Origin: Octopus vulgaris
Taxonomy: Eukaryota
Length of the DNA stretch: 64,000 nucleotides
Assembly (NCBI GenBank): GCA_951406725.2
Contig: OX597814.1
Span: forward strand, 190,712,001-190,776,000
Direction: 5' to 3'
Below the pieces are notes generated by a model. It was not told the origin of the DNA, did no database searches, and saw only the letters and a list, made by a program, of their open reading frames with translations. Shown here one piece after another: positions 3,721 to 53,081 of this stretch. The position numbers were made by a program, and so were the translations under genes. How positions within the stretch are numbered: position 1 is the stretch's first letter; every line of letters begins with the position of its first letter.

Positions 3721-3758
3721 AAACCTGATGACTGCGTAAAGCATAAAAATACTAGTTT
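3721..3758 (+). ncRNA. Degenerate minimal hammerhead ribozyme motif
   Basis: aaac-CTGATGA-ctgc gtaaa gcat-AAAA-atac-TA-gttt; stem I intact, GAAA mutated. Confidence 0.4.
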
Positions 3759-4609
3759 ATTTCAATAATGTAAATTTGTAAAACTTGTAAATAATAAAAC
3801 GTGAAAATCAGACTAAGTTGGGATTTCATTGATTAATATGTACATATATATACACACACATACAATTAGGAAAGAGAACTAAAACATCTCCATTGGATAA
3901 ATGTTAATTAATCTTTAACCTCTCAGACAAGATCACATTTCCAAATGCAGGAAATACAAATATTTTATTCAGTAATTGCTGGTGCATTAACTTTGTTTCG
4001 GTGCTATACTGCATATCAAAATATATCTTAGATTTTTAATGAATACTATATATAGACTGACATAAACACTTTGTCTACACACAATAGATTAGTGGACAGA
4101 AAAAAAAAAAAGGATCAACCAGACTGGTTTCAATCTTGAATTGGGATTTCACCAGAGACTGATAACCCTAGGTCAAATGACAAACATACTGGGCCTTACA
4201 TGAAATTTTTGCATAGCGTTCACAACACATATAGTAAAGACACCAAAACTAGTTTGACATGCACAAAGGAAAGCTTGCTAGCAAGTAAAGGCTGTCGAAA
4301 CATATACAATAAATTATTAACAGACTAAAGCATTTGAAAACCAGAAACTGCCAGCCCTTCAGGATATATGAATATTTTTAAAGCAACAAAAGCAATCTAT
4401 TATCTCAGTAAAGCAGATCCATCACCTCCTAAAATCACACAAAACTTATAAAAGAACAAGCAACTATGAATAATTAGTGGTAACAACATTCCAAAGACTT
4501 GTCTAATCATGACTGTGCAGCTAACAATAGATCGCTGGACAATACTGCACCAAGACTAAAGACAATTCAGATTCATTAACTGACATTGCAGAAACTTAAA
4601 AAGGCAAGT

Positions 4610-5235
4610 GAGACCATAACCTCCAGGCCTATGCCAGGGATATAACCAGTCCACTTATGCCTTTCCTTCATTGGACACTAAACTCTGCATGCAAAGACCT
4701 GTTGAGGCAAGTGAAACTGAAATCAAAATCAAACTCAATTGCGAAGACCTGTTGAGGTAAGTGAAATCAAAATCAAACTCGGTGTCTCGCATCCGTTGCT
4801 AGTGGAGCGCTAAGAGTACCATAGGAGTGAGATTGCTGCCAGTGCAACAAGCTGGCCTTCGTGCCGATGGCATGTTAAAAACACCATTCGAGCGTGATCG
4901 TTACCTGCGTCGCCATACTTGCACTTGTGCTGGGGGGACGGGAAAAAACATTCAAGTGAGGTCGTTGCCAGTACCGCTGGACTGGCTCCTGTGCAGGTGG
5001 CACAGCACCATTTAAGCATGACCGTTGCCAGTACCACCTGACTGGCCCTCATGCCAGCAACACGTAAAAGCACCCACTACACTCTCGGAGTGGTTGGCAT
5101 TAGGAAGGGCATCAAGCTGTAGAAACTCTGCCAAATCAGATTGGAGCCTGGTGCAGCCATCTGGTTCGTCAGTCCTCAGTCAAATCGTCCAACCCATGCC
5201 AGCATGGAAAGCGGGCGTTAAACGATGATGATGAG
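4610..5235 (+). mobile_element. RTE LINE 3' region with internal tandem subrepeats and (GAT)n tail
   Basis: Matches 31950-32350 and 43200-43465. Confidence 0.75.
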
Positions 5236-5249
5236 GAGGAGGATTCCCT

Positions 5250-5690
5250 AAAAAACAAGGCACTCATGTCTCATGGAATTCTAGCTAAGATATATAAATT
5301 TAGGACTGAAGCACTAGCAACAAAGCTTCATGCCAGATGAGATAGATACCAATTGACTTTAGAGATGAAATCATTATTAGCATGTTCAAAAGGGAGACAA
5401 ATCAGCTTATGGAATCTATAAAAGAATCTTACTTTAGTCCAGTTCTGGAAAAATTCTGGTTAGAATCCTGCTCAACTAACATATCCCATTAAAGTCTTAG
5501 TTTGATTGCACAACTTTTTAGACACGACATCGATATGATTTTCTGTGCTTTTCTGAGCAGCACAAACCATCGTAATTATACATAACTTTCTTTCACCAAG
5601 TCCTGTGGAAGAGCTAACAAAATTTGGCTGCCGACAAAAGTTTGATATGATCACACTAATTTTGCATGTTATACACAAAGCCTAATGCGT
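5250..5690 (+). pseudogene. Old degraded RTE-like reverse transcriptase remnant
   Basis: Broken frames KNKALMSHGILAKIYKF..., IPIDFRDEIIISMFK..., LTKFGCRQKF resemble RTE RT N-terminal motifs. Confidence 0.5.
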
Positions 5691-6115: not shown

Positions 6116-6149
<34 letters not shown>

Positions 6150-7479: not shown

Positions 7480-8115
7480 TAATAATAATAATAACAATGA
7501 AATGATTGTATACAGGGCTCAGGTGCACCACAACTTATCAAAAAGTGTGTATAAAGCATATGCAATAATGTACAAATGTCTGGGAAGTGAAAGGTGTATG
7601 AGTCAGATACATGCTTGCGTGTGTATGGAGGGGAGAAAATCAGGTGTAGTGTTGGTGAATCTCAGAAAGCATGGAAGTTTTGAAGGGTGCAGTGCTCCGA
7701 CAGCTAACAAGTGATGCCGGCAGTTTGTTCCATGCTTCAGCAACTCTTAGCATGAAAAAATGTTTCCGAAAGTCATGGGAGCTGTGCTGTTTTCTGACTT
7801 TGTAAACATGTCCACGGGTGTTAGACAGGTGGAGTTTGAAAAGTTGCTCAGAGTTATTGTTTGTAAGATGGTTAATAATTTTATGGGTGTCTGCCAAGTC
7901 AGCTGCCAGACGTCAGAGTTTCAATGTATCCATGCCCAGGGAAGTAAGGCGTTCAAAATATTGCAAATGCCTGATGGAGGGTATTCTTTTGGTTGCATGT
8001 CGCTGAACGGCTTCCAGACGATTAATATCCTGGGCAAGATAGGAGTTCCAGACCAGTGATGCAAGTTCCAGGTAAGGTCACACCATATAAAGCCGCAGAT
8101 AGATAGCCGGAGAGC
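7480..8115 (-). mobile_element. CR1-clade LINE 3' fragment
   Basis: SNTRGHVYKVRKQ...KHFF.LRVAEAWNKLP C-terminal CR1 motif and (ATT)n tail; same family as 62730-63540. Confidence 0.85.
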
Positions 8116-9250: not shown

Positions 9251-9694
9251 GGAGAGGAAAAATTATAATAAGGTAGAATTTTAATAAAAATGGGTGTATG
9301 GAAAATTATAAGTAAATTTTAATAAAAATGGGTGTATGGAAAATTAAAAAAGAAAACATAATAAATCAAACCGGTTTCATTGCAAGGCAAATTTTCAAGA
9401 TTTGGAAGGGGAAAAGAAATTTTTTTTTTAAATAAAGACTCTACAATGTATCGGTATACTTATTTATTAATTTTTGTATATACGTATTATTATTTTTTTG
9501 AAAAAAACATTGTAAATTTTTTTTCCCCTTCCTCAGTTTAAAAAAAATTTCTTTTCCCTTTCCAAATCTTGAAAATTTGCCTTGCGATGAAAACCGGTTT
9601 GATTTATTATGTTTTCTTTTTTAATTTTCCATACACCCATTTTTATTAAAATTTACTTTCAATTTAGCATTCTGCCTTATTATAATTTTTCCTC

Positions 9695-9697
<3 letters not shown>
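9251..9697. mobile_element. Fold-back pair of a hammerhead-bearing (Penelope-like) terminal repeat
   Basis: Inverted arms; + strand motif aaatc-TTGAAAA-tttgc ctt gcgat-GAAA-accggttt-gattt at 9564-9605, mirrored at ~9363-9403. Confidence 0.7.
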
Positions 9698-9755
<58 letters not shown>

Positions 9756-12750: not shown

Positions 12751-12751
<1 letters not shown>

Positions 12752-12935
12752 TGTTGTGTCTGGGGGAGAGTCATTTTCTTTTTGTGCCTTATAATTTAAC
12801 ACACTCACCAGTAAAATTTCCACTTATTTCTTATTTCTGTTTTCCTAAAATTTTCGTTGTGTCTTGCAACATTTTCAATAGTCTTGACTCTCTTGCAAAA
12901 GAATCTTGCAAACCAAATCCAAAAACGAAATATGT
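12751..12935 (-). mobile_element. Hammerhead-bearing repeat (UUGAAAA core) among (TA)n
   Basis: Nearly identical to 15431-15570; minus strand cta-TTGAAAA-tgttg caagaca caac-GAAA-attt-tag; right part matches 16176-16215. Confidence 0.65.
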
Positions 12936-15430: not shown

Positions 15431-15570
15431 ACTGTAGTGTCTGGGGAGAGTCATTTTCTTTTTGTGCCTTATAATTTAACACACTCACCGGTAAAATTTC
15501 CACTTATTTCTTATTTTTATTTTCCTAAAATTTTCATTGAGTCTTGCAACCTTTTCAATAGTCTTGACTC
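15431..15570 (-). mobile_element. Second copy of the UUGAAAA hammerhead repeat
   Basis: Direct similarity to 12751-12892. Confidence 0.65.
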
Positions 15571-16866
15571 TGTCCGTTATTTACACTGCATTTTTTTTTT
15601 GTTTGTTTGTGCACATGTGTGTGGGGTCAGTGTATGTGTGTGTGTACCTATGCATGCATGCATGTAATTATGTATGTATGTACGTATGTATGTATGTATG
15701 TAGGTATGTGTGTATGTATGTATGTATGTATGTATGTATGTATGTATGTGTGTATGTATGTATGCATGTGTGTGTATGTATACATGTGTGTATGTATATG
15801 TATATATGTATGTATGTGTGTGCATCTGTATGTATGTATTCTGCATATTCATATGCTTGCCTGTCCGTGTTTGTGTATTTTTTATGTATGTGTGTGTGAG
15901 CATGTGTTTGTATATGTATGCACCTCTGTCTCCTTGTGTGTGCATGTCTGTGTGTGTGTGTGTATGTGTGTGTTTTGCAACTATGTACCATGTTTGTATG
16001 TATGGATGTGCATCTCTATATGTGTGGACCCGTATTCTCCATATGTGTTTCCTTGTGTGGAGTAAAGTGTATGTGCATATATGGTCATGTGTTTCAGTCT
16101 TCATTTGCGTATGTGTGCTTGTCTGTTCATATAACCTATGTACCTAAGAATATGCTTCAATACATGAATTCATATAAAGAATCTTGCAAACCAAATCCAA
16201 AAACAAAATATCTTATATAAGTTATGTAGCAGGTTTTTAGCGAAATGCCGATTCAAAGCAATTGATGAGAGTAGTGGGGGACCACTAACATAGATCAGGG
16301 GTTTATGAACCATCTGTATGTTTACTATAGTTACTCTAATAAATGAGGTGGGGTGAGGTGGGGGGGGTATATTTTCTTCTTGCTGTTGCCTGAGGTCCTT
16401 ATTGTCATGGCGACCATTGTAACTATGAATAAGAACCTTCAAAACATCCACAGCTAACACGCGAAACACAAATCAATCAACCAGTTAAATCCCTGCAGAG
16501 AGGTGAAAGGGATAAAAAAAAAAGGCAAATATTACTAACATGGTGATATAGAAATGAAGACATACTATTTATCATTGAACATAAACTGATGATAAAAAGG
16601 GAAGAAATAAAAGGATAAAAATGAAGTAATCTCAATATCAAAAAGACATAATAACAGAAGAAAATAACAGTTAAAAAACAAAAAATTTTAATCTTTAGCA
16701 TCAGCAATGGGGTTTCTGAGGAGATACTTAATCTGCTAGAAATAGCAGCCAAATTTCCCTCAAACTATACTCTTCGTTATAAGTAAGGACACAATGACAA
16801 CAGGAATGATCAGTATTTACATTATTTGCATTTGACAGATATTTGTCTTCATCTTGTTTGTTGTTA

Positions 16867-16910
16867 ACATAACGTTTCAGCTGATATACCTTCCAGCCTT
16901 CTTCAGGTGT
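16867..16910 (-). ncRNA. Minimal type I hammerhead ribozyme within a repeat spanning ~16810-16960
   Basis: acac-CTGAAGA-aggctg gaaggtatat cagct-GAAAC-GTT-atgt; family recurs at 25410-25535. Confidence 0.65.
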
Positions 16911-18499
16911 CTTGGGGAAATTTCGAACCTGGGTTCTCATTCCTAAGGTATTTTTCGATGTTGTTGTTATTATTATTATTATTATTATTCAGGTCACTGC
17001 TTCAAATCGAACTCGGAATCTTGGGGTTAGTAGCCCGCGCTCTTAACCACTAAGCCATATGCTGGTGGGCATATGGTGTAGTGCATTTGAATAATGTAGT
17101 CCTGAATACATTATGTATGAGAATAAGATGAAATGGTCATGGCTGGAAAACATTTCATCATAGGGTATCCTCAATCAAAACTTAACACAAAACTAAAGAA
17201 CATTTTTTTTTTTATGGTTTAATCAGAGGAAGAACAGCAGTGCCAATGATCCACCTAGTAGTTTCGGGCCTTCACAACAGGTGGGGAAGCAAATGTGCTC
17301 AAACCAGAAACTTGGACCAAATACTCATAACAGGGAGGATTCAGCTAAAAGCACCCTAAGATGATGTTAAACCAGATGACATTAGAACATGGCTATTTCA
17401 ATAGTATTATATGTCAATGTCTCTGAGCAAAGCAATAATTATATAGGAACCAAAGGAATGATCATATTTTTTATCTGAGGTTTTTCTTAATCAGCATTAC
17501 CAACAAGGCAACCTCTACACTAATGGTTCTCAACCATCTTTTACCTATGGACCCCTTTGATTCCTATTTTACTCGGGTGGACCCTCGGACCCATTTGATG
17601 TTTTAAAAATTCTATTACACTTTACGCCACCTGACTAGCATCCGTGTCGGTGACACGTAAAAAGGCCAACCGATCGTGGCTGTTCGCCAGCCTCCTCTGG
17701 CCCCAGTGCTGGCGGCACATAAAAAGCACCCACTACACTCACGGGGTGGTTGGCATTAGGAAGGGCATCAAGCTGTAGAAACACTGCCAGATCAGACTGG
17801 AACCTGGCACAGCCGCCTGGCTTCCCAGACTCTGGTCGAACCGTCCAACCCATGCTAGCATGGAAAACGGACATTAAACGATGATGATGATGATGTACAT
17901 CCAATGTGTTGTTTGTGATAGACTATCTACCTATTATTTCTTTCCTACTCTCAGCGCTTTCATACATTTTAAAAGCATCCTTGTCATAAAAACATCTTCA
18001 AATCAGGGAAAAAAAATCAAACCAAATCTATAAATCTATATACGCTAAAAAGAAAACAAGGAAACAGCAGATTAAATATTGCAGGATTGAGTGGTTTTAA
18101 GAAACTAGTTATCAGCTAAAAGTAAAGATACAATTAGGCTCTATTATATATATTTAATTTCATATATAAAATCTTTGTGCACAGCTATATAAGTATACCA
18201 ATCACTATTATGTTTACTTGATCTGGGTTGCCTGGTGAATAAGGGAGTGGGGATTCAACTGAATGAAAAAGAAGACAAAAAAGCCATCACTAGTAAGACA
18301 GTGTTGAACAAAAGGACCCATGAGGTTGTGCTGTCAGTGCTATAGCAACAGTTCCCAGGAAAGCTAGTGGTGTTGGTAATATATGCAGGTGGATGTTGAA
18401 TGTAGAAATACAAAGGGAACTTAACTGGGTGAATGTGAAGGACAGCTAACACTTGGTACATGGATGGCAAACTACAAAGGCAGATCCATACACATGCAT

Positions 18500-20023: not shown

Positions 20024-20910
20024 TTCAGTAAAATTTAGATTCAGATGAATATGGTACTTAAGTTAAAAGTACCAGAATTTAGTATGGTATTATCCATATA
20101 ATTCAAAATGGGGTGATTATAATGAAAATAAGCAACAAGGATATCCAGGGGTAATGCAGTACGATCGTTTCATGCGACTCCATTTAATTGAACAATGCAA
20201 ACATTACTTCAATTTTAAAATATAGAACAATCTTCAGCTGCATAAAAATATAGAATTTAGTTAAACTCAAGGACTTATTTGTATAATTTTCTTTATATCG
20301 AAAACCAGTAGATAGGCAAAGAACCAACACAGTTGTAACTGAGATTTTTTCAAAAGAAGACACTGCTTATCACTGATTATTTCTGTTATTCAGATTTACT
20401 AATGGGGGGGCGGCTAGTTTTAATTTATAGACTAGTTTATCAAATCTAAGAGAAACTAGAATATATCCTTTATGGATAGGGTAAAATAGATAGACAATTT
20501 AAGTGGCAGAGTCATAAATCAAGATTTCTTTGAAGTAAAACCATTAGGTTCAGTAAGAATACACTTCAGACAAGAATATAGTAGTTAAGTTTGCAGGCTG
20601 ATGCTAATGGGGTAGGGAGAGTGAAATCATTCAGTATTAAACATTTACCTACTATAAAAACAATGTTATTTGTATATACACAGATACATTTTAGAGTTAT
20701 TCTAAAGAGCACTAAGAAGAATATTTCTGAATACATTCAGTATTATCAAAGAATTTTACACAATAGAAGGACAAAAAATATAGAAATAATTCTATACTTA
20801 TATATTTCTATACTATCTTAACATATATTTATAGTTATTTATCAAATGGTAGTTATTGGTATTAATAAAGGAAAGTTAAGTTAAAGGAGTCTTAAAATTT
20901 ATATATCAAA
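20021..20910 (-). mobile_element. AT-rich non-coding Penelope-like element with a hammerhead near the (TA)n-abutting end
   Basis: Hammerhead at 20154-20243 (atgcag-CTGAAGA-~59 nt-GAAAC gatc GTA-ctgcat); body homologous to 32360-33050. Confidence 0.65.
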
Positions 20911-20916
20911 TATTAA

Positions 20917-21350
20917 TCATCATCATCATCATCATCATCGTTTAACGTCCGTTTTCCGCGCTAGCACAGGTTGGACGGTTCGACCGGGGTCTGGGAAGCC
21001 AGGGGCTGCACCAGGCTCCAGTCTGATCTGGCAGAGTTTCTACAGCTGGATGCCCTTCCTAACGCCAACCACTCCGCGAGTGTAGTGGGTGCTTTTTACG
21101 TGCCACCTGCACAGGTGCCAGGAGGGTCCGGCATCGGCCACGATTGGTTGGAGCTTTTAACGTGCCACTGGCACGGAAGCCAGCCAAGGCGGAGCTGGCA
21201 ACGGCCACGTTCGGATGGTGCTTTTTATGTGCCACCGGCACAGAATCCAGTCGGGGCGGCGCTGGCAACGGCCACGTTCGGATGGTGCTTTTTATGTGCC
21301 ACCGGCACAGAAGCCAGTCGAGGCAGCGCTGGCAACGGCCACGTACGGAT
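20917..21350 (-). mobile_element. RTE 3' UTR with ~57-bp tandem subrepeats
   Basis: Repeated ggtgctttttatgtgccaccggcac units and (CAT)n on the + strand. Confidence 0.85.
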
Positions 21351-22589
21351 TAATATCAAACTAAAATTATTAATACATATATATGCATGTAGAATTGACC
21401 CATACTACTCAAGAAGACCCATACTCCACAGAAGAAATGTTCATCCCAGTCCCTCTGGTGGTGAAATGCTCTTATAGCAGTCCCACATAAGGGCACCTGC
21501 GCAGCGTCACATAAAATCACCCAGCACACTCTATAAAGTGGTTGGTGTTATGAAGGGTATCCAGCTGTAGAAACCATGCCAAATGTAACTGGAACCTGGT
21601 GCAGCTCCCCATCTTGCCAGTTCTGGCCAAACCATCCAACCTATTCCAGCATGGACAACAAATGATAATGATGATATATATATATATAGATATAGGTTTC
21701 AAATTTTGGCACAAGTCCAGTAATTTCGGGGTGGGAGAGATAAGTCGATTACATCCACCCCGGTGCTCAACTGGTACTTATTTTATCAACCCCGAATGGA
21801 TGAAAGGCAAATTTAACTTCAGCAGAATTTGAACTCAGAACACGAAGACAGATGAAATGCCAGTAAGTGTTTTGCCCAGTATGCTAATGGTTCTGTCAGT
21901 GCGACATCTTATATATATATAGATATGTATATATATGTATATATATACATGTGTGTGTGTGTATTTTATATAAATATATATATATATATATTTATAAAAT
22001 TCATAAATGAGGGCAAAGGAAAAAAATTCTAATGCCAAATATACCGAAAAATTGGACATATTGTCCATTAACCATATAATTTTTTCACAATACGCACGCT
22101 ACTCGAAAAAAGGTCGACAGAAATCTCTAAAAAATTCCATTATTACCATATCGGACCGATTTCATATATATAGGTGTAGGAGTGGCTGTGTGGTAAGTAG
22201 CTTGCTTCCCAACTACATGGTTCCGGGTTCAGTCCCACTGCGTGGCACCTTGGGCAAGTTTCTTCTACTATAGGTTCAGGCTGACCAAAGGCTTGTGAGT
22301 GGATTTGGTAGACAGAAATTGAGAGAAGCCCGTCATATATATATATGTATGTATATGTTTGTGTGTCTGTGTTTGTCCCCCCACTATCGCTTGACAACTT
22401 AGTGGTTCAGCAAAAAGAGACCAATAGGCTTACAAAGAGTAGGTCCTGGAGTCAATTTATTCGACTACAGGTGGTGCCCCAGTATGGCCACAGTCAAATG
22501 GCCGAAAAGCGTAAAACAGTATATATATGTATATATATATACTTGCTTTTCACCATGTGTAACTCCTAATACCAGTCGTTTTTTTTTTT

Positions 22590-22774
22590 TTTTTTTTTTC
22601 TCTATCTCCGTTGCCCGCTCCGGGATCTTTCTTTCCTCTCTCTTCCTTCTTTATGTTTCCGACGAAGAGCTCTGCTCGAAACGTCATACCTCCCTGCTTC
22701 CATTTCCTGAGCGCCTATTAATAATAATACTGTAATTGTTCCTTTGTTGTTGTTTTTTGTTTCCCGTTTGGATT

Positions 22775-22825
<51 letters not shown>

Positions 22826-23068
22826 TGTATGTGTGTATGTATGTGTATGTATATGAATGTATGTTTGTGTATGTATGTATATATATATAGTTAATCAAAA
22901 AAACAACAAGAGGATGTGGTACATGCAAAGTATTAAGATGCTCAGAGAAGGAAAGGAAGGGTGTTTTACATTTCAAGCAATGCTCTTATTCAGAAACAAG
23001 AGACAGAGGAAAGTCCAAGAGAAAGGAAAGACGGAGGAAAAAAATCTCGCCAACAGTTCACATGTGGT
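22590..23068. mobile_element. Inverted pair (tails inward) of a hammerhead-bearing repeat
   Basis: + motif gttt-CCGACGA-agagc tct gctc-GAAAC-GTC at 22655-22690; degraded minus copy ~22960-22997; same family at 31111-31547, ~36005-36120 and 49680-49880. Confidence 0.75.
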
Positions 23069-24664: not shown

Positions 24665-24724
24665 TTTTAAAATATAAATATATGAAAGAATGGAGCTGAA
24701 CGACGAATTAACAAAATTCCTTTA

Positions 24725-24807
24725 TTTTCGACATATGTTTCGAAGGCTGCATATTCCTAATTGCGAAGGAATAAGGAGTACATTATGCCACTTTCTCATC
24801 AGGAAAA
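24725..24807 (-). ncRNA. Type I hammerhead ribozyme with canonical core and expanded stem II
   Basis: ttttc-CTGATGA-(gaaagtggcata...tgcagccttc)-GAAAC-atat-GTC-gaaaa; palindromic stem III ACATATGT. Confidence 0.75.
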
Positions 24808-25409
24808 GCAAGGAACTTATATATATATATCTATATATATATATATATAAAATATATATGTGCTGGCAATGGGTTGGACAGCTCCTGTCAAATCATCCAA
24901 CATATGCCAGCATTGAAAACAGACACTAAATGATGATAACAATGATGAAGATGATATAATGATAAGGATGAAATGAATGGTGTATCAGGTAATACAACAC
25001 ATATCCATATCGAATCGTATTTAGGACACAGATATATTATATCATTTGGCATGTAACAATATGCAACATCATGAAACACACAAATCAAATTTTTTAGGTG
25101 ATATACCTCTAGAAGTTCAGTGACACACATACACACACACACATATTGGGTCATCCTATAAATAATTTAGTCTTTTTATACTTCTTTTAATTTTCAAAAT
25201 TAAGATAAACAATGTTCTTACTTAATCATCATCATCATCGTTTAGCGTCCGTTTTCCATGCTAGCATGAGTTGGACGGTTCAACTGGGGTCTGTGAAGCC
25301 TTCTGGCTTCATCAGGCCCAGTCAGATCTGGCAGTGTTTCTACGGCTGGATGCCCTTCCTTAATCTAAAATATATTCTGTATTTTAGAGATGAGGAATTC
25401 TGTGCATAA

Positions 25410-25800
25410 TTTACATTGGACGGATACATGTCCTCATCTTGTTTGTTGTTACTACGTTGTGGCTGATTTAACCTTCAGCCTTCATCAGGTGTCCTGGTGG
25501 AATTTTGAACCCAACCCTAGGTTCTCGTTTCTAAGGGTTCAGGACATCCATATACCACACTAAGCATGGCTACAGGACATCCGTATACCGCAAGCCAACC
25601 TTCACTGGACGATGCCTAAACTTCAATTCCCACTGTCCATACAGTGTAAAGAGAGGGATTGCTCAGTGCCTAAAACATGGAGCAAAGAATATAAATAGCG
25701 ATCCTGATACACACCACCATATTAGGAATGAGAACCCAGAGTTGGGTTCAAAATTCCACCAGGACACCTGATGAAGTGAACCACGAAACTGTCGGTTCTT
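25410..25800. mobile_element. Inverted hammerhead-bearing arms separated by a ~185-bp spacer
   Basis: 25483-25535 is the reverse complement of 25722-25774; + core CTGATGA-agtg aac cac-GAAAC-t-GTC at 25768-25793. Confidence 0.65.
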
Positions 25801-31112: not shown

Positions 31113-31322
31113 GTTAATCCAAACATGAAAACACAAAGAGAAAACATGACAACGCGAGGACGTGGAACAAGTATAGTATTATTGGACGCTCAGGAAAGAA
31201 GGAAAGAAGAAGGGTTTAACGTTTCGAGCGGAGCTCTTCGTCAGAAACATAGGAAAAGGAAAGATCCAAAGAAGGGAAGACAGAGGAAAAAAAATCCCCA
31301 ACAGTACACATGCGGTCACATT

Positions 31323-31362
<40 letters not shown>

Positions 31363-31542
31363 GGCGATTTTCTTTCTCCGTCTTCCCTTCCTTGGACCTT
31401 TCCTTTTTCTATGTTTCTGACGAAGAGCTCTGCTCGAAACATTAAATCAACCTTCTTTCTTTCCTTTCCTGAGCATCCAAATAACACTAAACTTGTTCCA
31501 CATCCTTGTGTTGTTGGATTTCCTCTTTGTTCATGTTTGGAT

Positions 31543-31547
<5 letters not shown>
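31111..31547. mobile_element. Inverted pair (tails outward) of a hammerhead-bearing repeat around (TA)n
   Basis: Minus motif gttt-CTGACGA-agagc tcc gctc-GAAAC-GTT-aaac at 31214-31248; + copy at 31413-31447. Confidence 0.8.
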
Positions 31548-31586: not shown

Positions 31587-32350
31587 CTGTGAATCCTGAG
31601 AAAATGCATAGGCTTGAAAGAAATGAAGCTAGTGTGCTCCGCTGGATGTGTGTAATGTCAGTGTGCATGCACAACAAAGTGTAAGCTTCCTGAGAAAAAA
31701 GTTGGACATCAGAAGTATCAGATGTGGTGTGCAAGAGAGACAACTGTGCTGATATGGTCATTTGATATGCATATGGATGAGGACAGCTGTGTGAGGAGGT
31801 GTCACGCCCGAACTGTGGAGGGAACCTGTGAAAGAGGTTGACCTAGAAAGAATGTGAAGAGGTGGTGAAGCACAGCCTTCAAACGTTGGGCCTCACAGAG
31901 GCAATGACAAGTGACCGAGACCTTTGGAGATATGCTGTGCTTAAGAAGACACAGCAAGCCAAGTGAGATCGTAGTTGTGGCCGATACCAGTGTCGCATAA
32001 CTGGCTCATTTAAAAGCACCCTTCAATCTTTGAGTGATATGCCATGCTTATGAAGACCTGTTGAACCCAGTGAAAATGTAGTCGTGGAAGATTGGCATCC
32101 ATGCTGGTGGCACATAAAAATCATCACTTAAGTGCGGCCAATGCACCTGTGCCAGTGGCACATAAAAAGCATCATTCGAATGTGGCTAATGCCAGTGCCA
32201 CCTGAATGGTACTTGTGCTGGTGACATGTAAAAAGCACCCACTACACTCTTAGTGTGGTTGGTGTTAGGAAGGGCATCCAGCTGTAGAGACCTTGCCAAA
32301 TCAGATTGGAGCATGGTGCAGCCTCCAAGTTTGCCAGTTCTCAGTCAGAC
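31582..32350 (+). mobile_element. 5'-truncated degraded RTE LINE (ORF C-terminus plus 3' UTR)
   Basis: MHRLERNEASVLRWMC matches MRRLERNEASMIRWMC in the 42469 ORF. Confidence 0.9.
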
Positions 32351-32359: not shown

Positions 32360-34760
32360 TAGAAGTTACTGAATTTTCAAGAAGATATACATTGTTACAG
32401 ACTCTGCCATAAAAACTGATCCCATAAAAGCAAAAAAATCAGTGACAGGTAGAGTCACTGATTTTTTTGTTTTCATGGGATCAGTTTTAATTTATAGACT
32501 AGTTTATCAAGTCCCTTGTATATCTAAGGCTGAGAGAACAGAGGGCAGTGTCTGTTAGGGCTGAGGGAGCAGACAGACATCATAGCTGGTATAGTCATAA
32601 AAATCAAGATTTATTAGAAGCAATATCATGAGGTTTGGTAAAGGAAAACTTAAAATAAGATGTTAGCTGATAATTAAGACCACTGATAATGAAACAGGGG
32701 AAGTCTTATCATGTAGTTAAATATTTTAAACAATGTTACTATATTGTATACAGTTAAAGTTTAGGGTTATTCAAATAATTATTAAGAAGAATATTATAAC
32801 AAAAGGATAGAAATTTATGAATACTTTTGAGTATATACCAAACTTTTACTGCAATAGAGGGAGGAAAAGAAATTATCCTGAAATAGTTTAATATCTATAC
32901 ATATTGTACACTTAAATACTAACTCATTAGATGGTATCTGTGAATATTGATTAATTGATATATACAGGTATTAATAAAGGAGTATTGAGGTAAAGGAACA
33001 TGCTAATTATATATTAATAAAATTATAATCGAAGCAGTATTTTTTTATTAGTAGTGAATATACCAGTATAGTTTTATATAAGCTAAGTATGAATTCACAG
33101 AGATGCAAAAATTAGATTAATTCTATAAATAAATAAAGGCTAATTATAAAATAATAAAGAAATAAAATAAACAAGTAGGGCAGAACACTATAGAAAAGGA
33201 AATAAAATGGCTTAATTACTAATACTATGGTAATGTATATGTAGCTAATTAACACCAATAGAAAAGATTTTTTTTAAATGTATAATTCAAAATATATCAG
33301 ACTAAAAATTATATATTTACTTATTTAGCTAATATCAATAAAAGACTGATGTCTGGAATCAGCTAAAGGAATATTTAAGTTATGTAACGATCATATTTTA
33401 CACTAATCTTTTTTTAAAACTAAGGGTTATATCATAAGTTTAAGAAGTTATTATTGTTACTCCCTACATGATATTTATAGTTTCTTAGTGGTACTTGTTT
33501 AGAAGGGTTATTTATATAAAGGCCCTTATAAATACTAAGATGTGGGGGGGGTGTTAGAACCATTTAAGAAAGAGATAAATCAAGTAATTTCTAAAGATCA
33601 TTTCAAACAATATTGTCTTATTGTATAAAGTTAAAATTTAGGGTAATCAAGAAGATTATTAAGAATGAAATTTTAACAAAATGATAAAACTTCTTTGAAT
33701 ATTTTGAGTATATACCAAATTTTTACCACAATAGAGGGAGGAAAAGAAAATTGCAAAGAAATAGTTTAATATTTATTTACATATTACTTATCTAAATATT
33801 AACCTATTATATGGTTTCTATGGAGATTGATCAAATGGATTTAATTGATATTTAATAAGGGAGCAACTGAGGTTAAAGAATATGTCAACTATATACTGAT
33901 TTAATTAAATTGAACTATTTTAAGTTGTCGAGATACTGGTATTACCTTATATAAGCTGAGTACGAATTAATAGGGGTACAAGGGTTAAATTTATTTAAGA
34001 CTACTATAAAATAATAATAACAATAACAATAATAAAATGATCAGTTAGGGTAGGGCATCATAGAAAAGGAATAAAAACAGCCTAATCACTAAAAACCATA
34101 ATAAAATATCCATACCTTATTAATTTCAATAGCAAGTATTTATAGAAAATGTATAATAATTTAAGTATTATGAGCTAAAAATTGTTAATTAACTTATTTA
34201 GCTTATTATAATCAGGTATTGGTTAAAAGAATAATTGCCGTTAAAAGGACATGCTAATCATATACTAATATTAAATTAAGAGGTATAATATAGATTTCAA
34301 AATTTATTTGTGTTAATCCATAAATGATATTACAGTTTCTTAGGGGTATTTAATTAGAAGGGCTGTTTGCATAAAGCCGATATAAATACCAAAATTAAGA
34401 GGACGGAACACTTTAAGAAAGGTATAAAAAAACTTAGTTGCTAAAACTATTTTAAACAATATGTTATTGTTGTAAAAAGTTAAAATTTAGGGTTATCAGG
34501 AAGATTTATCATAGAGGTGAGAGGACAAATTTACTATAAATTAGTTAAATTATAATTTAGGTAGCTTAATTTTTAAGTTGTGAAGATACCCATATTGTTT
34601 TTATAAGCTGAGTATGGATTTATAGGGGAACAAAAATTTAGGTGTGTCTAAAGGCAATTATAAAGTATTAAAATGATTGGGTTGGGTAGAAACACCATAG
34701 AAAATTATATGAAATAGCTTAATCACTAAATTCATGATGAAGTATATATACAACTTAGTG
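32360..34760. repeat. AT-rich element body with ~860-bp diverged tandem units
   Basis: Units start at ~32728, 33605 and 34454; shared blocks such as tataagct(a/g)agta at 33077, 33950 and 34602. Confidence 0.75.
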
Positions 34761-34785: not shown

Positions 34786-35366
34786 CATCATCATCATCAT
34801 CATCATCATTTAGCGTCCGCTTTCCATGCTAGCATGGGTTGGACGGGTCAACTGGGGTCTGTGAAGCTGGAAGGCTTCGTCAGGCCCAGTCAGATCTGGC
34901 AGTGTTTCTACGGCTGGATGCCCTTCCTAACGCCAACCACTCCGCGAGTGTAGTGGGTGTTTTTTACGTGCCACCTGCACAGGTGCCAGACAGAGCTGGC
35001 GAACGGCCACGAACGGATGGTGCTTTTACGTGTCACCGGCACGGGGCCAGGCGATGCTGGCAACGGACACGAACGGATGGTGCTTTTACGTGCCACCGAC
35101 ACGGGGCCAGACAGAGCTGGCAACCGTAAAAAGCACCAGCCGATCATGGCCGTTTGCCAGCCTCCTCTGGCCCCTGTGCTGGTGGCATGTAAAAGGCACC
35201 CACTACACTCACGGAGTGGTTGGCATTAGGAAGGACATCCAGCTGTAGAAACACTGCCAAATCACACTGGAACCTGGTGCGGCCTCCTGGCTTCCCAGAC
35301 CCCGGTCGAATCATCCAACCCTTGCTAGCATGGAAAACAGACGTTAAATGATGATGATGATGATGA

Positions 35367-35413: not shown

Positions 35414-36122
35414 GTGTGTGTGTGTGTGTGAGTGTGTGAATCTTTTCTTGTGACCTAAATTTCACATTTTATTTCTTTTCAGAAATCCAGGGAGAAAGGA
35501 CAGCTTGTCTTTCTAAAGTATGCTCACATCAGAAGCTGAAAACTTATAGCCAAGTGCAAGAAAAGCACCTAAGATATAAGAAGGTGTTTTTACATGCCAC
35601 TTGCATGGGTATCTTAACTACAATTTCCATTTGATTTTTATTTTGATGTTTGTGTTGACATATTTGACTCAATAGGTCTCCTCAAGAACAGCGGGTCACT
35701 CTACGAGCCAAGGTTAGCACAACAGGCCATCCTGTGATCCATGAACTCATTTCATTTGTCGGGTCTTTGCAGAGGTCTCGGTCTTTCGTCATTTCCTTTG
35801 TGTGGCCCAACGTGCCACCGGCATATAAGGAAACAGCATTGAACATGAATGACTGTGGTTTTGGAATCTCATTTTGCAACTCAAATTAGAGTTCTGTTCA
35901 TTCTTAGTATTTCTGTTTTGGGGAATCTGAGATCAACTAGGTATCTTCCAAAATCTGACACATTTTCTCTCTCTCTTTCTCTTCCTCTCTCTCTCTCTCT
36001 CTCTCTCAAAGAGCTTAGGCTTGAAACATCAAACACTTTTCCATTTTTCCCATGCACCAAACTAATAAATCTGCTTGTTGTTCCCTCACTTGTTTTTGTC
36101 TTTTGTTGCCTGTACATTTAAA

Positions 36123-36183: not shown

Positions 36184-36590
36184 TGCATACCTCGCTCTGT
36201 GTCCTTAATTGGTTCCAGGAAATACGACTTAAGTCGAAATAACATGTCTCTAGGCTAGGCTAGGCTGAATTTACTTGTCTCTAGGCTAAATCCCCATAAT
36301 AACCATTCCCACTTTTGTACTTTATTTATGAATGCATTTTCAATAATACATGGTTAACCTATTTTTAATAATACGTGGTTAACCTATTTTAAGCTTACAA
36401 ACAAATAATTTTATTCTTTAATACAGTACAGTAAAAAAAAGTTATGAATGCAATTTGGCGGTTTTTACCATACATATATATATATATATATATATGATGA
36501 TGATGATGATGATGATATACCGGAGTAAACACATAAATGTGAAACAAGGTGGAAAAAAGAGTACTCAAATACCAGTGGTAGAGTAATATG

Positions 36591-37122
36591 CTTTATTTTA
36601 AGCAGCAGAAAATTCAACAAAATCTGTTACTCTGAGTTTCTCGTTGCCGTTCATCAGACAGTTTTTGCTAGAATGGAACCGATATATCAATTCAATCTAG
36701 ACTCTTACAAACGCTACACCTTTTAAAAAAATGGACTTGTTTGATTGGCCCTTTAGAAAAAACGGTCAATCTTCGAGCGATAAACAAAAAGGTCAAAAAT
36801 ATATGTATATATATATAAATACTTATAAAAATTATAAAATTCGAGGAATTATAAAATTCCTCGAATTTTATAATTTTTATAATTTTTATAAGTATTTATA
36901 TATATATACATATATTTTTGACCTTTTTGTTTATCACTCGAAGATTGACCGTTTTTCTAAATGGCCAATCAAACAAGTCCATTTTTTTAAAAGGTGTAGC
37001 ATTTGTAAGAGTCTAGATTGAATTGATATATCGGTTCCATTCTAGCAAAAACTGTCTGATGAACGGCAACGAGAAACTCAGAGTAACAGATTTTGTTGAA
37101 TTTTCTGCTGCTTAAAATAAAG
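36591..37122. mobile_element. ~530-bp near-perfect palindrome with a hammerhead in each arm
   Basis: Centre ~36852; + motif ctgt-CTGATGA-acg gcaa cga-GAAAC-tcaga-GTA-acag at 37052-37089. Confidence 0.9.
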
Positions 37123-41665: not shown

Positions 41666-41743
<78 letters not shown>

Positions 41744-41745
<2 letters not shown>

Positions 41746-43465
41746 GAAGGTCTCAGAGAAGGTCATAACCCATCTCATTAGGGAGAGAATTTGTTTAGAT
41801 GAAATGCAGTTCGGTTTTGTACCAGGTAGAAGCACCACTGATGCTATATTCCTGGTCCAACAACTGCAGGAGAAGTACCTAGCTAAAGATAAACCCCTCT
41901 ACATAGCTTTTGTAGACTTGGAGAAAGCCTTTGACAGGGTTCCCCGTTCCCTCATCTGGTGGTCGATGCGGAAACTGGAGATTGAAGAATGGCTAATAAG
42001 GGCTGTACAGGCTCTATACAGAGAGGCTGTCAGCAAGGTTAAGATTGGCAACGAATATAGTGAAGAATTCCGGGTAGAAGTAGGTGTGCACCAGGGCTCA
42101 GCCCTCAGTCCCCTTTTATTCATCATAGTCATTCAGGCAATAACAGAGGAATTCAAAACGGGATGCCCCTGGGAGCTCCTCTATGCCGATGACCTAGCTC
42201 TCATAGCAGAATCACTACCGGAACTAGAAGAGAAATTTCGGGTGTGGAAGCAAGGGTTGGAATCAAAGGGCCTTAGAATAAATGTAGCAAAGACCAAAGT
42301 ATTAGTAAGCAGCAAGAGGTACTCAGCACACACCCCTCGGGTAGGTGGCCCTGCTCAATCTGTAGGAAAGGTACAGGTAGAAACTCCATAAGATGCACCC
42401 AATGTAAGTTATGGACACATAAGAGGTGCAGCAACATTAAAGGGAAATTAACAGATAAGATAGCTTTCATGTGCGGCAGATGCACAGGGACAATAGACAC
42501 AACAGTCACTCAGAAAACAGATTCCATCACACTCCAGGGAGAGAAACTAGAAGTAGTTGATAGTTTCCGCTACCTGGGTGACCAAGTTAGTAGTGGAGGT
42601 GGATGCACAGAGAGTATCACCACTAGAATACGAATAGCCTGGGCAAAGTTCAGAAAGCTCCTACCCCTACTGGCAACAAAAGGTCTCTCCCTCAGAGCGA
42701 AAGGTAGATTGTATGATGCATGTGTGCGAACTGCCATGCTTCACGGTAATGAAACATGGGCAGTGACTGCAGAGGACATGCGTAGACTTGAAAGAAATGA
42801 AGCTAGCATGATCCGCTGGATGTGTAGTGTCAGTGTGCACGCAAGACAGAGTGTAAGCATCCTAAGAGAAATGCTGGATATAAGAAGCATCAGATGTGGT
42901 GTGCAAGAGCGACGCTTGCGATGGTATGGTCATGTGCTGCGGATGGATGAAGAGAGATGTGTGAAGAAGTGCCACTCCCAAACAGTTGAAGGTATCAGGG
43001 GGAGAGGTAGACCCAGGAAGACATGGGATGAGGTAGTTAAGCATGACCTCAGAGCATTGGGCCTCACTGAGGCAATGGCGAAAGACCGAGATCTCTGGAG
43101 ATATGCTGTGACTGCAAAGACCCGGGCTGCTTTCTGCAGCAATTCCACATACCCCCTACCCATTCAAAGTACCCCGGATCCCCAAAGTACCCCGGACCCA
43201 GTTGCCCCCGTGCCGCTGGCACGTTAAAAGCTCGAACCGATCGCGACCGATGCCGGACCCCCCGGCCCCTGTGCAGGTGGCACGTAAAAAGCACCCAATC
43301 TACTCACGGAGTGGTTGGCGTTAGGAAGGGCATCCAGCCGTAGAAACTCTGCCAAATCAGACTGGAGCCTGGAGAGGCCCCTGGCTTCCCAGACCCCGGT
43401 CGAACCGTCCAACCCGTGCTAGCGCGGAAAACGGACGTTAAACGATGATGATGATGATGATGATG
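41744..43465 (+). mobile_element. 5'-truncated RTE LINE: RT (one frameshift near 42335), PHD finger, C-terminus, 3' UTR and (GAT)n tail
   Basis: QFGFVPGRSTTDAIF, AFVDLEKAFDRV, GVHQGSALSPLLF, LLYADD, FRYLG, RRLRWYGHVLRM, RGRGRPRKTW. Confidence 0.95.
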
Positions 43466-49070: not shown

Positions 49071-49079
49071 GAGAAGTGA

Positions 49080-49673
49080 TGAGCAAGTAAACCAGCGGAT
49101 ATTTTGGCTCATTGATTTTTGTTGTTGTCACTTAAAGCATGCAGAACCCATGCTCCATACTTCTGAACCTTTCCCATCGAGTGAAGATGCTTCTCTATAG
49201 CAGTGTGGGAGCATTCCATTTTCTCTGCCAGTTCCCTTGTCGTTTGATGAGAATTTTTGTGCAAAAGTTAGTTTAATCACTCTTCATCGAACTCAACTGG
49301 ATGGCTAAAATGAGTGCATCTTTGAGGTCAAAATTTCCATTTTTGAACCTGGTATACCAATGATGAACAGTTCTTTTAGCTATGGCATCCTCTCTGTACA
49401 CAGCACAAATGTTGCAAGCAGCTTTTGCGGCCTTAGAACCTTGATTAAAAGCAAAAAGAAGGAGGTCGAGAATGCTCATTTTTCTTAACTTGACATTCCA
49501 TTTTAATGATCTGAAAATAAACAAAAATTAACTATAATTAACTAGAAAAATAAGTAAAATAGATTCAAAAATGATTCAAAAATAGAATTCTCAAAAAAAA
49601 AATAGATTCCAAAATTTAAAAATGCAATAAATTCCAAAATTTAAAGAAATGGCAGGAACTTAGTTGCCAACCC
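49080..49673 (-). mobile_element. mariner transposon 5' fragment
   Basis: LLFAFNQGSKAAKAACNICAVY...WYTRFKNGNFDLKD HTH region; end TA|GGGTTGGCAACTAAGTTC. Confidence 0.85.
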
Positions 49674-52600
49674 TATATAATTAATCCAAAATAACAAAGA
49701 AGAAAAACACAACAAAAAAACAATAATGCGAGGATGTGGTACATGCAAAGTATTAAAAGATGTTCAGGGAAGGAAAGAAAGGGCGTTTTACATTTTGAGC
49801 AAAGCTCTTCTTCAGAAACAGGCAAGAGAGGAAGTTCAAGAGTAAAGGAAGATGGAGGAATAAAATCGCCAACAATACACATATATGTAAACTTTTCAAT
49901 TAAACTAATTAACTAATTCTAATGATCTTCTATTCTACTTAATCTTCATTAATGAATTAAGTTTCTTTTCAATTTAGGATTGATTTTGGTTTGACACAGA
50001 AATTATTGTTAAGTTCATTCAAAAGTTACTAAAGTGAATACTTGCATAAATGATGTAACAAATTTACTTACAAATCAAATATGCTAACACACACTTTACT
50101 ATTGAGTTTTTATGCAACATGCATCGTTAGATATTAAAAAATATATAAACTAAGTGTACCATGTTATTCATATGTAATTTAACCTTTATTAGATTACAAA
50201 TTTAAATGAGTCCCTTTGAATGTTTTCACTCTTTACATCATTGTGGTGGCTGATGACAGTATCGCCTGATTGGCACCATGCACGTTAACAGCACCATTCA
50301 AGTGTGATCATCGCCAGTTCCACCTGACTGGATCTCATGCTGGTGGCGCATAAAAAGCGCCATTCGAGCGTGGTGGATGCCAGTACCAGCCGATGGCACA
50401 AAAAGCATCATTCAAGCGTAGTCGTTGCCAGTGCCACCTGACTGGCTCCCATGCTGGTGACATGTAAAAAGCACCCACTACACTCTCGGAGTGGTTGGTG
50501 TCCAGCTGTAGAAACTTTGCCAGATCAGATTGGAGCCTGGTATAGCCTTCTGGCTTGCCAGCCCCCAGTCAAACCGTCCAACCCATACCAGCATGGAAAG
50601 TGGACATTAAACAACGATGATGATGATTATGATAATGACATCTTTTTATTTATCTTTAGTCACACACCCACTTACCACTTTGGGGGGGGGGGGGTTACGG
50701 TCCACCTTGTCCGCCAAAATGAACAGAGAACAAAACTGCTGAACAAAACTTTTTAATCTGTTTGTCAGAATAAGCATGTATGTCTGTTTGTTCATTTTAC
50801 GTCCATTTTCCCACGCTAGCATGGGTCAGTGAAATACTAACCAATGTGAGTGCTGCTTCTAAGCAGTTATGTATGCAATTAGAATTAGCAGTCATATCAA
50901 CCTCAATGCATAAAGATGTCATTTGTAAAAAGGAAAGATACATTAGATAATGTAGCTACAGATACCACTGTGAAAACAAAATGGTCACAATTGGAATGTC
51001 TTTGATCAGAGATCTACTGAATCAAGACTGACCGGAACCTAAACAACAATTCATAAGTACATCAACATCAAAAAATCAAATGGAAATTGTAGTTGCGATA
51101 CCTGTGCCGGTGGCACGTAAAAAGCATCATTTAAACGTGGCTGATGCCAGCGCCGCCTTGACTTGCTTCCATGCTGGTGGTACGTAAAAAGTACCGACCA
51201 ATCATTGCCAGCCTCCCCTGGCACCTGTGCTGGTGGCACGTAAAAAGCACCCACTACACTCACGGAGTGGTTGGCATTAGGAAGGGCATCCAGCTGTAGA
51301 AACACTGCCAGATAAGACTGGAGCCTGGTGCAGCCTCCTGGCTTCGCAGACCCCGGTCAAACCGTCCAACCCATGCTAGCATGGAAAACGGACATTAAAC
51401 GATGATGATGATTAACATATTTCTTTTGTTCCAGATGTAAGAAGGCCCTCTCAAAGTAAAGTTTTATCATAATTTTCTCTCTTCATCTTCAATATCTTTT
51501 ATCTTTTACTTGTTTCAGTCATTGGACAGCAGCCATGCTGGCACACCAAGTTGAACAAATCAACCCCAATATTTATGTTTTATTTTAAGTCTGATATTTA
51601 TTCCATCAGTTGTTATTGCCAAACTGCAATGTTACAGGAATGTAAACAAACCAACACTGGTTGTCAAGCATCTAGTGGGAGGGGGGTGACAAGAATAGTC
51701 ACAAAGGTACACACACTCATAGACACATATCCTCCCTGTTATAAGCATTCATGCCAGGTCTCAGGTCTGAAGAGATCTATCTTTCATCCTCCTACCACTC
51801 TCAGAGGGTCTGTACAGAGCTGTGTGCACTGTCTTCTATCTCGGTTTAAAATATGAAAAAAAAACACCCACCTACAACAGCATTAGAGCCTACTTTTGTT
51901 TTGGATAAATCTAAAGGTATAGATAGGAAACTTGTACATATGGGTAACAGCTAGTGTTCTACAAAACCCCTGCTCTGGTCTACACCTTGGAAAGGAGCTT
52001 TCCAGGCATAGATACTCAAACTATCTCTAACAGATAACAAAGGCTATTGATATTGAAATGTTTAAATATTAATAATTTGGGATGATATCGCATGGCCTAG
52101 TGGTTAGGATATTAAGATTGTTAGGTCATGGGTTTGATTTTTGAATCAGCTGATATGTTATGACCTTGAGCAAGGATCTTGATTTCATGTTGCTCCAGTA
52201 CATTGAGGTCAGTCTGGTATTATCCGCACAGCTCGAAGTAAGGTAAATGAAATCAAATAAGTAACACCTGACATCCTCTTACTTAGGTGACACAAAATAT
52301 AGCGCAGCCTACAGAAATATATATATGTCTGTGTGTGTGTATAGTCTTTATAGTTATTTATTTTCATTTTCTTTCTATTTCAATGTCACTCTCTTGTAAT
52401 ATTATTTCATTTATTTACATCAGTTGGATAACAACACACTTCCTTACAACAAAAATCCTTTTGTTCTTATTGTCCTAGAAAGCCATTTCTGAAGTCAGAG
52501 TCAGGTAACTTGTGTCGAGCATTCAAAATGTAAGTATAAACATGAATTACAATGTTTGGCTCCTTTCTCTTCTTACCCTGTAATTTAGACCAATAGTTTG

Positions 52601-52880
52601 TTTCCACGATATATTATTTCATGCACACATATGAACACATACATGCACACACACACACACACACACACGCACATGCACAGGCGCACACACACAAACACAC
52701 ACACACATACACCAAGTGTATCTGATGGTCCTAATATGTTTCCCTTGATTCTGGAATTTTATCTGTTATATTTTCTTCCCAACCACATGGTTCTGGGTTC
52801 AGTCCCACGGTGAGGCACCTTGGGCAAATGTCTTCTACTATAGCCTTGAGCCAACCATTTAATATTATAATGATCAGTTA

Positions 52881-53081
52881 ATATCATAATGGGGGCCACT
52901 TTATGGGGTTACCCTGGGTTTCTCGCTCATAAGGGGTTTAGCCTTACAGCATATCTTCAGACTCCATTTTGAAAAGGTCTTAAGCCAGCAGTGTTTGGGG
53001 TCTGAAGATATACCATAAGGCTAAACCCCTTATGAGTGAGAAACCCAGGGTAACCCCATAAACCAGCCCCCATTATAATAT
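52881..53081. mobile_element. ~200-bp fold-back with a hammerhead in each arm
   Basis: + motif ggggt-CTGAAGA-(long stem II)-GAAAC-ccagg-GTA-acccc at 52997-53057, mirrored at 52905-52965. Confidence 0.8.

What the first reader, a model, noticed from the sequence alone, without database searches (positions are those of the whole stretch)
3721..53057. About nine distinct families of minimal hammerhead ribozyme elements in 64 kb
Type I cores (stem I, CUGANGA, stem II, GAAA, short palindromic stem III, NUH) occur at 3721, 9564, 12845/15525, 16867/25450, 20154, 22655/31214/31413/49785, 24725, 25768, 37052 and 52997, in flanks that differ between families and usually abut (TA)n. Minimal hammerheads with palindromic stem III are established features of Penelope-like element repeats and retrozymes and are thought to cleave as dimers. 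No Penelope RT or GIY-YIG ORF is present here, so these look like a diverse non-autonomous, microsatellite-associated population.
Basis: partly seen in the sequence, partly recalled or inferred. Interest (0 to 1): 0.7.

Follow-up and report, generated by a model that had tools for sequence, protein, structure and literature searches.

The report
Penelope retroelement stubs carrying hammerhead ribozymes
This repeat-rich animal DNA, likely from an octopus, holds 19 short copies of nine hammerhead-ribozyme motifs that are likely leftover ends of Penelope-type jumping genes, a known kind of genomic fossil seen here at high density, with RNA cleavage untested.

Summary
The motifs are real. There are 19 copies in nine families, 9 with an intact type I fold (mean 0.15 in 60 shuffles); the rest are decayed or cut short. 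'No Penelope RT here' is wrong: a Penelope RT-thumb fragment (25550-25723; 108 of 121 PLE queries) lies between an inverted pair of family-B hammerheads. Family B, translated, matches the N-terminus of full-length RT + GIY-YIG proteins. Six families fit published Hydra-clade hammerheads (6-7-nt palindromic helix III, often an unpaired helix II base, (TA)n targets; G almost equals a coral Hydra motif), so they are not strictly 'minimal'. Elements are 100-210 bp, often head-to-head palindromes, never tandem: they are not retrozymes and have no nearby same-strand dimer partner. Families B and F show roughly 10^4-fold single-copy depth. Best reading: 5'-truncated pseudo-LTR stubs of several Penelope-like families, with the ribozyme as a passenger. 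Known kind, new families. Cleavage and expression are untested.

The parts
3721..3757 (+). Family C hammerhead, decayed (GAAA read as AAAA, imperfect helix III); next to (TA)n
   Evidence: not found by the descriptors
9251..9697 (.). Family D head-to-head palindrome (74% arm identity), right end at (TA)n
9363..9403 (-). Family D hammerhead, left arm, one A lost after GAA (missed by reader)
9564..9605 (+). Family D hammerhead, intact; U3-A8 core variant, U.U at foot of helix II, 6-nt palindrome
12751..12891 (-). Family E stub with intact minimal U3-A8 hammerhead at 12845-12881; 3' end at (TA)n
15432..15571 (-). Family E stub (92% to the first) with intact hammerhead at 15525-15561
16834..16948 (-). 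Family B stub; minimal hammerhead 16866-16911 with C.A at first helix I pair
20154..20243 (-). Family I hammerhead, intact; 59-nt helix II region, 6-nt palindrome
22643..22776 (+). Family A stub, hammerhead 22655-22689 with U4C; 3' end at a TA tract
22902..23068 (-). Family A stub, hammerhead 22963-22997 with G8U (missed by reader); tail-to-tail with 22643 copy
24684..24815 (-). Family F stub with intact hammerhead 24725-24807; 54-nt helix II region, 6-nt palindrome; high-copy
25419..25536 (-). Family B inverted pLTR stub, decayed core (GAAA lost; majority letters in reads restore it)
25550..25723 (+). Penelope-like RT thumb fragment (TSVYRKPTF motif), itself multi-copy
25722..25776 (+).
31113..31302 (-). 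Family A stub with intact minimal hammerhead 31214-31248
31360..31546 (+). Family A stub, hammerhead 31413-31447 with helix III mismatch; head-to-head with the previous copy across a TA tract
36519..36798 (-). Family G left arm with intact hammerhead 36624-36661 (missed by reader) and a one-sided 3' extension (about 36519-36590)
36916..37122 (+). Family G right arm (98% to left) with intact hammerhead 37052-37089; ends at (TA)n; palindromic junction between arms
49730..49882 (-). Family A stub, hammerhead 49785-49819 with G12A
52889..53073 (.). Family H head-to-head palindrome; hammerheads 52905-52965 (-, helix I mismatch, missed by reader) and 52997-53057 (+, intact); ends at (TA)n

Best explanation
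These hammerhead motifs are likely the pseudo-LTR (3'-end) stubs of several Penelope-like retroelement families, left by insertions that would have been cut short at the 5' side, with the ribozyme carried along as a passenger. Shown: nine motif families in 100-210-bp dispersed repeats, five head-to-head pairs, (TA)n neighbours, and for family B a physical and homology link to Penelope RT. Inferred from the Anolis Poseidon work (PMC11167929): the GIY-YIG endonuclease nicks AT-rich DNA and RT starts inside the RNA about 110-150 nt into the ORF, just downstream of the hammerhead, so even an abortive copy contains the ribozyme; inversion gives the palindromes. B is likely Penelope/Poseidon-clade; C, D, F, G, H, I likely Hydra-clade by ribozyme architecture; A and E are unassigned. 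In the parent elements the ribozyme would cut tandem precursor RNA as a dimer; the solo genomic copies are likely mostly inactive.
For: RT-thumb fragment 25550-25723 is hit by 108 of 121 PLE proteins and by a PLE HMM at iE 6.9e-15 and is the only PLE-specific match. It lies between inverted B copies that are 93% identical over 55 nt. The 25488 B copy translated matches residues 16-45 of full-length 847/858-aa RT + endonuclease proteins P0002/P0406 (score 74, shuffle max 51). The 16906 copy matches ends of PLE fragments P0418, P0146 (73, 66 vs 46) and P0145, P0233 (59, 58 vs 54). pLTRs that include the ORF start, head-to-head inversion with palindromic junction and an optional tail are described in PMC3846280 and PMC11167929. 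Where a TA run marks the 3' end, it lies 67-216 nt past the core. File S2 of PMC8557442 lists Hydra hammerheads with U.U at the helix II foot, 6-7-nt palindromes and (TA)n targets; by eye, Hydra-2_aMil has the same helix I, core and cleavage base as family G, and the same helix III except the loop base. Reads: B and F about 10^4-fold single-copy depth; majority letters restore GAAA in the decayed B copy (98% at 25459) and the three other listed changes in helix II fall in its loop.
Against: Only family B is tied to a PLE protein; the other eight had no convincing match to 381 Poseidon-type proteins (D left arm 53 vs 43 and E 64 vs 58 judged chance), and no Hydra or Neptune protein was available to test. 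The 16906 copy's match to P0002 (54) is below its shuffle maximum (60). The thumb-B link is one locus, and the contigs listed over the thumb stop at 25717 without bridging into B. Family A shows 96% paired cells but 0 of 10 pairs with a two-sided change and does not beat shuffles. None of 10 folds is clearly better than shuffles (best z -2.2). The double-hammerhead equals the cofold minimum only for H, 1 of 7. Three metagenome PLE loci had no hammerhead. Target-site duplications could not be read in the microsatellites.
Confidence: 0.85

Rival explanations
1. The palindromic units (D, G, H, A pairs) are self-contained non-autonomous elements, MITE-like or PLE-mobilised SINE-like, that amplify as whole units rather than arising afresh from truncated autonomous copies.
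For: Arms stop at similar lengths; four of five A copies share a 5' region about 60-100 nt above the core; G arms are 98% identical; very high depth of short F and B segments. Non-autonomous PLE derivatives are in print (PMC8557442 passages; bioRxiv 10.64898/2026.07.22.740005).
Against: Arms within D and H differ by 21-26%; A occurs solo, head-to-head and tail-to-tail with different junctions; the B pair encloses an ORF fragment; G has a one-sided tail as in PLE insertions.
Confidence: 0.1
2. They are non-LTR retrozymes that make circular RNAs by tandem hammerhead cleavage.
For: Type I hammerheads in an animal genome; one joint 25493 to 25429 in run X1 (depth 347 + 210, kind not displayed) could be a rare tandem B dimer.
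Against: No hammerhead lies in a tandem array among 127 TRF rows; the nearest same-strand same-family pair is 2.7 kb apart and separated by other repeats; 12 of 19 copies are in opposite-strand pairs.
Confidence: 0.03
3. The motifs are chance matches in AT-rich repetitive DNA.
For: 10 of 19 copies fail the descriptor; descriptor tuned post hoc; Rfam showed no hammerhead hit among rows displayed; 25768's 3' half is fortuitous.
Against: 9 vs 0.15 in shuffles; unrelated stem sequences keep pairing across families; known diagnostic extras (extra base before helix II, U3-A8 pair, palindromic helix III) recur; match to published Hydra motifs.
Confidence: 0.02

Closest known systems
[quoted passage not shown]
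   Same: Extra base between A9 and helix II, palindromic 15.2-16.2, U3-A8 core variant, many families per genome, mostly solo, opposite-strand pairs 100-700 bp apart (families A, B, E; core variant also in D)
   Different: Six families here have longer palindromes; octopus is not named in the parts I read
Hydra-clade PLE hammerheads (Craig et al. 2021, PMC8557442, File S2), incl. Hydra-1_Obim and Hydra-2_Amil
   Same: U.U or other unpaired base at helix II foot, 6-7-nt palindromic helix III, (TA)n targeting; G nearly equals Hydra-2_aMil outside helix II
   Different: None equals the listed Hydra-1_oBim motif; helix II regions of F (54 nt) and I (59 nt) are longer than any Hydra row shown; no Hydra ORF identified in the window
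Penelope/Poseidon PAc of Anolis (PMC11167929) and Adineta Penelope copies (PMC3846280)
   Same: Hammerhead overlaps the ORF start; 3' end about 100 nt downstream; inverted pLTR plus internally deleted body (family B locus)
   Different: Only a 58-codon thumb fragment remains; no full ORF or readable target-site duplication
Non-LTR retrozymes (PMC7229834)
   Same: Type I hammerheads in animal repeats; U.U at helix II foot also in axolotl HHR_Amex2
   Different: No tandem 150-450-bp units; no circRNA evidence

Membership tests
Type I hammerhead ribozyme | Conserved core (CUGANGA, GAAA, UH) joined by helices I-III | tested here: met
   9 of 19 copies intact, 7 of 9 families have an intact copy; B core restored by majority letters; C only decayed
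Type I hammerhead ribozyme | Covariation of stems | tested here: inconclusive
   Family A: 0 two-sided changes in 5 copies; one compensatory A-U/G-C change between the two H arms seen by eye; stems differ between families while pairing
Type I hammerhead ribozyme | Self-cleavage (monomer or dimer) | not testable with these tools
   Energy estimates only
Minimal PLE hammerhead | Helix III reduced to a 2-nt palindrome, extra base before helix II | tested here: met
   Met by A, B, E; not met by D, F, G, H, I
Penelope-like element pLTR | Linked to PLE RT/GIY-YIG coding sequence | tested here: met
   Family B only; not shown for the other eight
Penelope-like element pLTR | Inverted or partial-tandem 5'-truncated copies with optional tail | tested here: met
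   Five head-to-head pairs; one-sided extension in G
Penelope-like element pLTR | Full-length parent element in the same genome | not testable with these tools
   No genome held
Hydra-clade PLE | Hammerhead with long palindromic helix III and (TA)n insertion | tested here: met
   By-eye comparison with File S2; TA distances
Hydra-clade PLE | Hydra-type RT and C-terminal endonuclease | not tested
   No Hydra protein was returned by any tool; stubs leave little room for coding sequence
Non-LTR retrozyme | Tandem 150-450-bp units each with a hammerhead | tested here: not met
Non-LTR retrozyme | Abundant circular RNA | not testable with these tools
   Only assembled contigs were available

The most novel reading that the evidence does not exclude
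Octopus genomes carry on the order of 10^5 or more PLE-derived hammerheads, among the densest loads in animals, including lineage-restricted families (F, I) whose 54-59-nt helix II insert and 8-bp dimer helix let dispersed copies cleave in trans or as monomers, and whose head-to-head palindromes spread as their own non-autonomous units and cut or edit-mark host transcripts.
Probability: 0.12. Interest if true: 0.6.

Novelty: new member of a known kind. Interest (0 to 1): 0.3.

Why it matters
The kind is described: coral has over 6000 hammerheads in 16 families, and octopus PLEs with hammerheads and (TA)n targets are in a published supplement. The value is practical. Hammerhead architecture can sort unclassified octopus repeats into PLE clades, the window shows stubs of at least two clades side by side, and the long-helix-II families F and I are ready substrates for asking whether PLE hammerheads cleave at all in vivo, which is still open. 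The density (19 in 64 kb) would be notable if genome-wide.

Tried and rejected
Rfam E-value scan: swamped by microsatellite-driven miRNA hits, no hammerhead among 150 of 200 rows shown. No whole genome held. The repeat finder was swamped by TA arrays. Pfam scan of 300 of 315 filtered ORFs of 55 aa or more found RTE-type RT, gypsy and mariner pieces but no PLE domain; this negative is uninformative because this Pfam copy gives even full-length P0002 only RVT_1. Family A pattern in metagenome contigs: 0. PLE loci: 3 in metagenome contigs without hammerhead or match to the window, 0 in viral contigs. Atlas search of the thumb fragment: no usable hit. No RNA holder listed; run X14 is only guessed to be RNA, so it says nothing on expression. 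Four look-ups of earlier findings: nothing. Six short window motifs in the PMC8557442 supplement: 0 hits. The 2.5 kb between the two same-strand E copies holds other repeats and no PLE match, so they are not the pLTRs of one element. The idea that the ORF stop inside the 25768 core marks a true C-terminus was dropped: the junction is a deletion and relatives end differently. The 660 bp 5' of family I and the related array at 32400-34750 were suspected of being a decayed ORF (LRR or another PLE clade); Pfam read-through and the Poseidon-type HMM gave nothing, so it stays unidentified. The paper on dimer cleavage of PLE hammerhead variants (Lunse et al., recalled) is not held.
Full report
Setting. 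The window is eukaryotic repeat DNA: 37% G+C, 127 tandem-repeat rows, several high-copy dispersed repeats, an RTE-type RT at 41666-43227, gypsy pieces at 55.6-56.9 kb and a mariner HTH at 49276. No genome is held. Among the 25 top rows shown, the best match spanning 53 of the 54 residues of the PLE fragment described below is P0170, named Octopus sinensis LOC118763458 (68%), so the host is likely an octopus; this is an inference.

Observation. All 15 reported coordinates hold hammerhead-like sequence, 8 of them on the - strand. My first descriptor found nothing because it lacked the extra base before helix II; with it, one perfect hit (31244-) against 0 of 40 shuffles with a palindrome. A relaxed descriptor, tuned after reading the sites, gives 9 intact motifs against a mean of 0.15 and maximum of 1 in 60 shuffles. 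With decayed copies there are 19 copies in 9 families at 13 loci: A (22659+, 22993-, 31244-, 31417+, 49815-), B (16906-, 25488-, truncated 25768+), C (3725+), D (9398-, 9569+), E (12878-, 15558-), F (24802-), G (36657-, 37056+), H (52960-, 53002+), I (20237-). Ten copies fail the descriptor. A, B, E have 2-nt palindromes (true minimal form). D, F, G, H, I have 6-7-nt palindromes; D and I have U.U, G has A.A at the foot of helix II; D and E use the U3-A8 core; F and I have 54- and 59-nt helix II regions. The Rfam scan showed no hammerhead among 150 of 200 rows.

Anatomy. The repeats are 100-210 bp. Twelve of 19 copies are in opposite-strand pairs: five head-to-head (D, G, H, A at 31.1-31.5 kb, B at 25.4-25.8 kb) and one tail-to-tail (A at 22.6-23.1 kb). 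G has a palindromic junction and a one-sided 3' extension of about 70 bp. No hammerhead is in a tandem array. 12 of 19 copies (8 of 13 loci) are within 150 nt of (TA)5, against 21% of random unmasked positions; the three B copies are 638-1605 nt away.

Copy number and consensus. Against single-copy contig depth of 40-50, summed depth over F is 2.7-11.6 x 10^5 in runs X1 and X3 but 0-1.1 x 10^4 in X15, and over B 3.5 x 10^5 to 1.8 x 10^6 in all three DNA runs. The tool warns this is no copy number; I read it as order 10^4. Depth is continuous over F's long helix II and one contig spans it without gaps, so the insert is a family trait. In the decayed B copy the majority letters restore GAAA (98% at 25459 in X1; 26-86% at 25460) and the three other listed helix II changes fall in the loop; 34 of 74 variant rows were not shown. 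Bases 25786-25810 are single-copy, so 25768 is a truncated B copy.

Link to Penelope. Between the inverted B copies, 25550-25723 reads as an RT thumb. It hits P0001 (62%, E 1.4e-13; PF00078 + PF26215, the latter recalled as the PLE thumb HTH), whose long relatives include proteins named or annotated GIY-YIG. 108 of 121 such proteins and an HMM built from them (iE 6.9e-15) hit this spot; the only other hit under E 0.01 was a weak one to the RTE RT (again only this spot). The B hammerhead region itself, translated, matches residues 16-45 of full-length P0002/P0406 (74 vs shuffle maximum 51) and ends of four PLE fragments (73 and 66 vs 46; 59 and 58 vs 54); the 16906 copy against P0002 (54 vs 60) is not significant. 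The other eight families gave no convincing match. The Pfam negative is uninformative. The Poseidon label for B is inferred from the lack of a zinc-finger linker in P0002; I built no tree.

Comparison with print. PMC4209133 (parts 1-2 of 4 read) describes minimal PLE hammerheads with the extra base, U3-A8 variant, many families per genome, mostly solo copies, opposite-strand pairs, no monomer and low dimer cleavage. PMC7229834 (passages): over 6000 motifs in 16 families in Acropora, U.U foot in axolotl, retrozymes tandem. PMC3846280 (passages): head-to-head pLTRs with palindromic junctions, tails, pLTR including the ORF start, internally deleted copies. PMC11167929 (part 1 of 4 and passages): ORF starts at helix II, RT starts inside the RNA, hammerhead cleavage not needed for insertion in vitro. 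PMC8557442 (passages; supplement hits and part 2 of 59): octopus Naiad and Hydra families target (TA)n, and File S2 Hydra hammerheads show the U.U foot and long palindromes; by eye G equals Hydra-2_aMil in helix I, core and cleavage base and in helix III except the loop base; none equals Hydra-1_oBim. PMC13282606 (passages): 31 recently active PLE families in O. vulgaris, the word ribozyme absent. PMC6962438 (passages): 235 Rfam hammerheads in giant squid. bioRxiv 10.64898/2026.07.22.740005 (part 1 of 5) derives retrozymes from PLE pLTRs; its supplements are closed. PMC8967140 (passages): Penelope abundant in coleoids. Searches listed no paper devoted to octopus hammerhead families; Repbase, Dfam and most subscription papers could not be checked, so these families may already have consensus entries.

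Mechanism. Shown: motifs, repeat ends, inversions, TA association, B-PLE link. Inferred: a PLE endonuclease nicks AT-rich or (TA)n DNA, RT starts about 100 nt downstream of the hammerhead and often stops early or inverts, leaving solo or palindromic stubs that contain the ribozyme without selection on each copy; this explains both density and decay. Predicted: palindromic helix III gives 4 bp (A, E) or 8 bp (D, F, G, H, I) in a dimer against 0-3 bp in a monomer; the double hammerhead is the cofold minimum only for H, 1 of 7. Opposite-strand partners cannot dimerise in cis and would instead form long hairpins, so most copies are likely silent. Against: no two-sided covariation in family A, weak folding scores, eight families lack a protein link, and the thumb-B junction was not bridged by the contigs listed.

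Verdict. Real, explained, known in kind; new families of two or more PLE clades in a likely octopus genome. Interest 0.3. The open upside is the genome-wide load and the long-helix-II families.

Noticed in passing
window 32400-34750 and 20260-20920: AT-rich array of about 880-bp partial tandem units (66% alike), related (63% over 568 columns) to the 660 bp directly 5' of the family I hammerhead; both share a 24-nt identical end. Possibly a decayed retroelement ORF; no Pfam or Poseidon-HMM hit.
   Followed up: partly
window 41666-43227 and 31589-31939: RTE-type LINE RT with a C-terminal PHD-like finger, frameshifted; a second 3' fragment at 31.6 kb.
   Followed up: no
window 55600-56900 (-): Decayed gypsy-type LTR retrotransposon RNase H and integrase pieces.
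   Followed up: no
window 49276-49527 (-): Mariner (Mos1-type) transposase HTH fragment.
   Followed up: no
window 25429-25493: Joint 25493 to 25429 with 7 letters between in run X1 (depth 347 + 210); may be a rare tandem dimer of the family B hammerhead; joint kind not displayed.
   Followed up: no
window 3100-3397, 20940-21350, 34810-35347 and others; 113-523, 22166-22507 and others: Two or three very high-copy SINE-like families, one with internal 60-67-bp tandem units and (ATC)n ends; depth about 10^7 at 25216-25367.
   Followed up: no
window 35470-35525 (+): A pyrimidine tract, AG, about 35 nt and GT look like a micro-exon, which would make part of the window intronic (by eye).
   Followed up: no
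window 7499-8115 and 62905-63527: Inverted 625-bp repeat pair at 92% identity, next to LINE-like coding remnants at 62643-63026.
   Followed up: no
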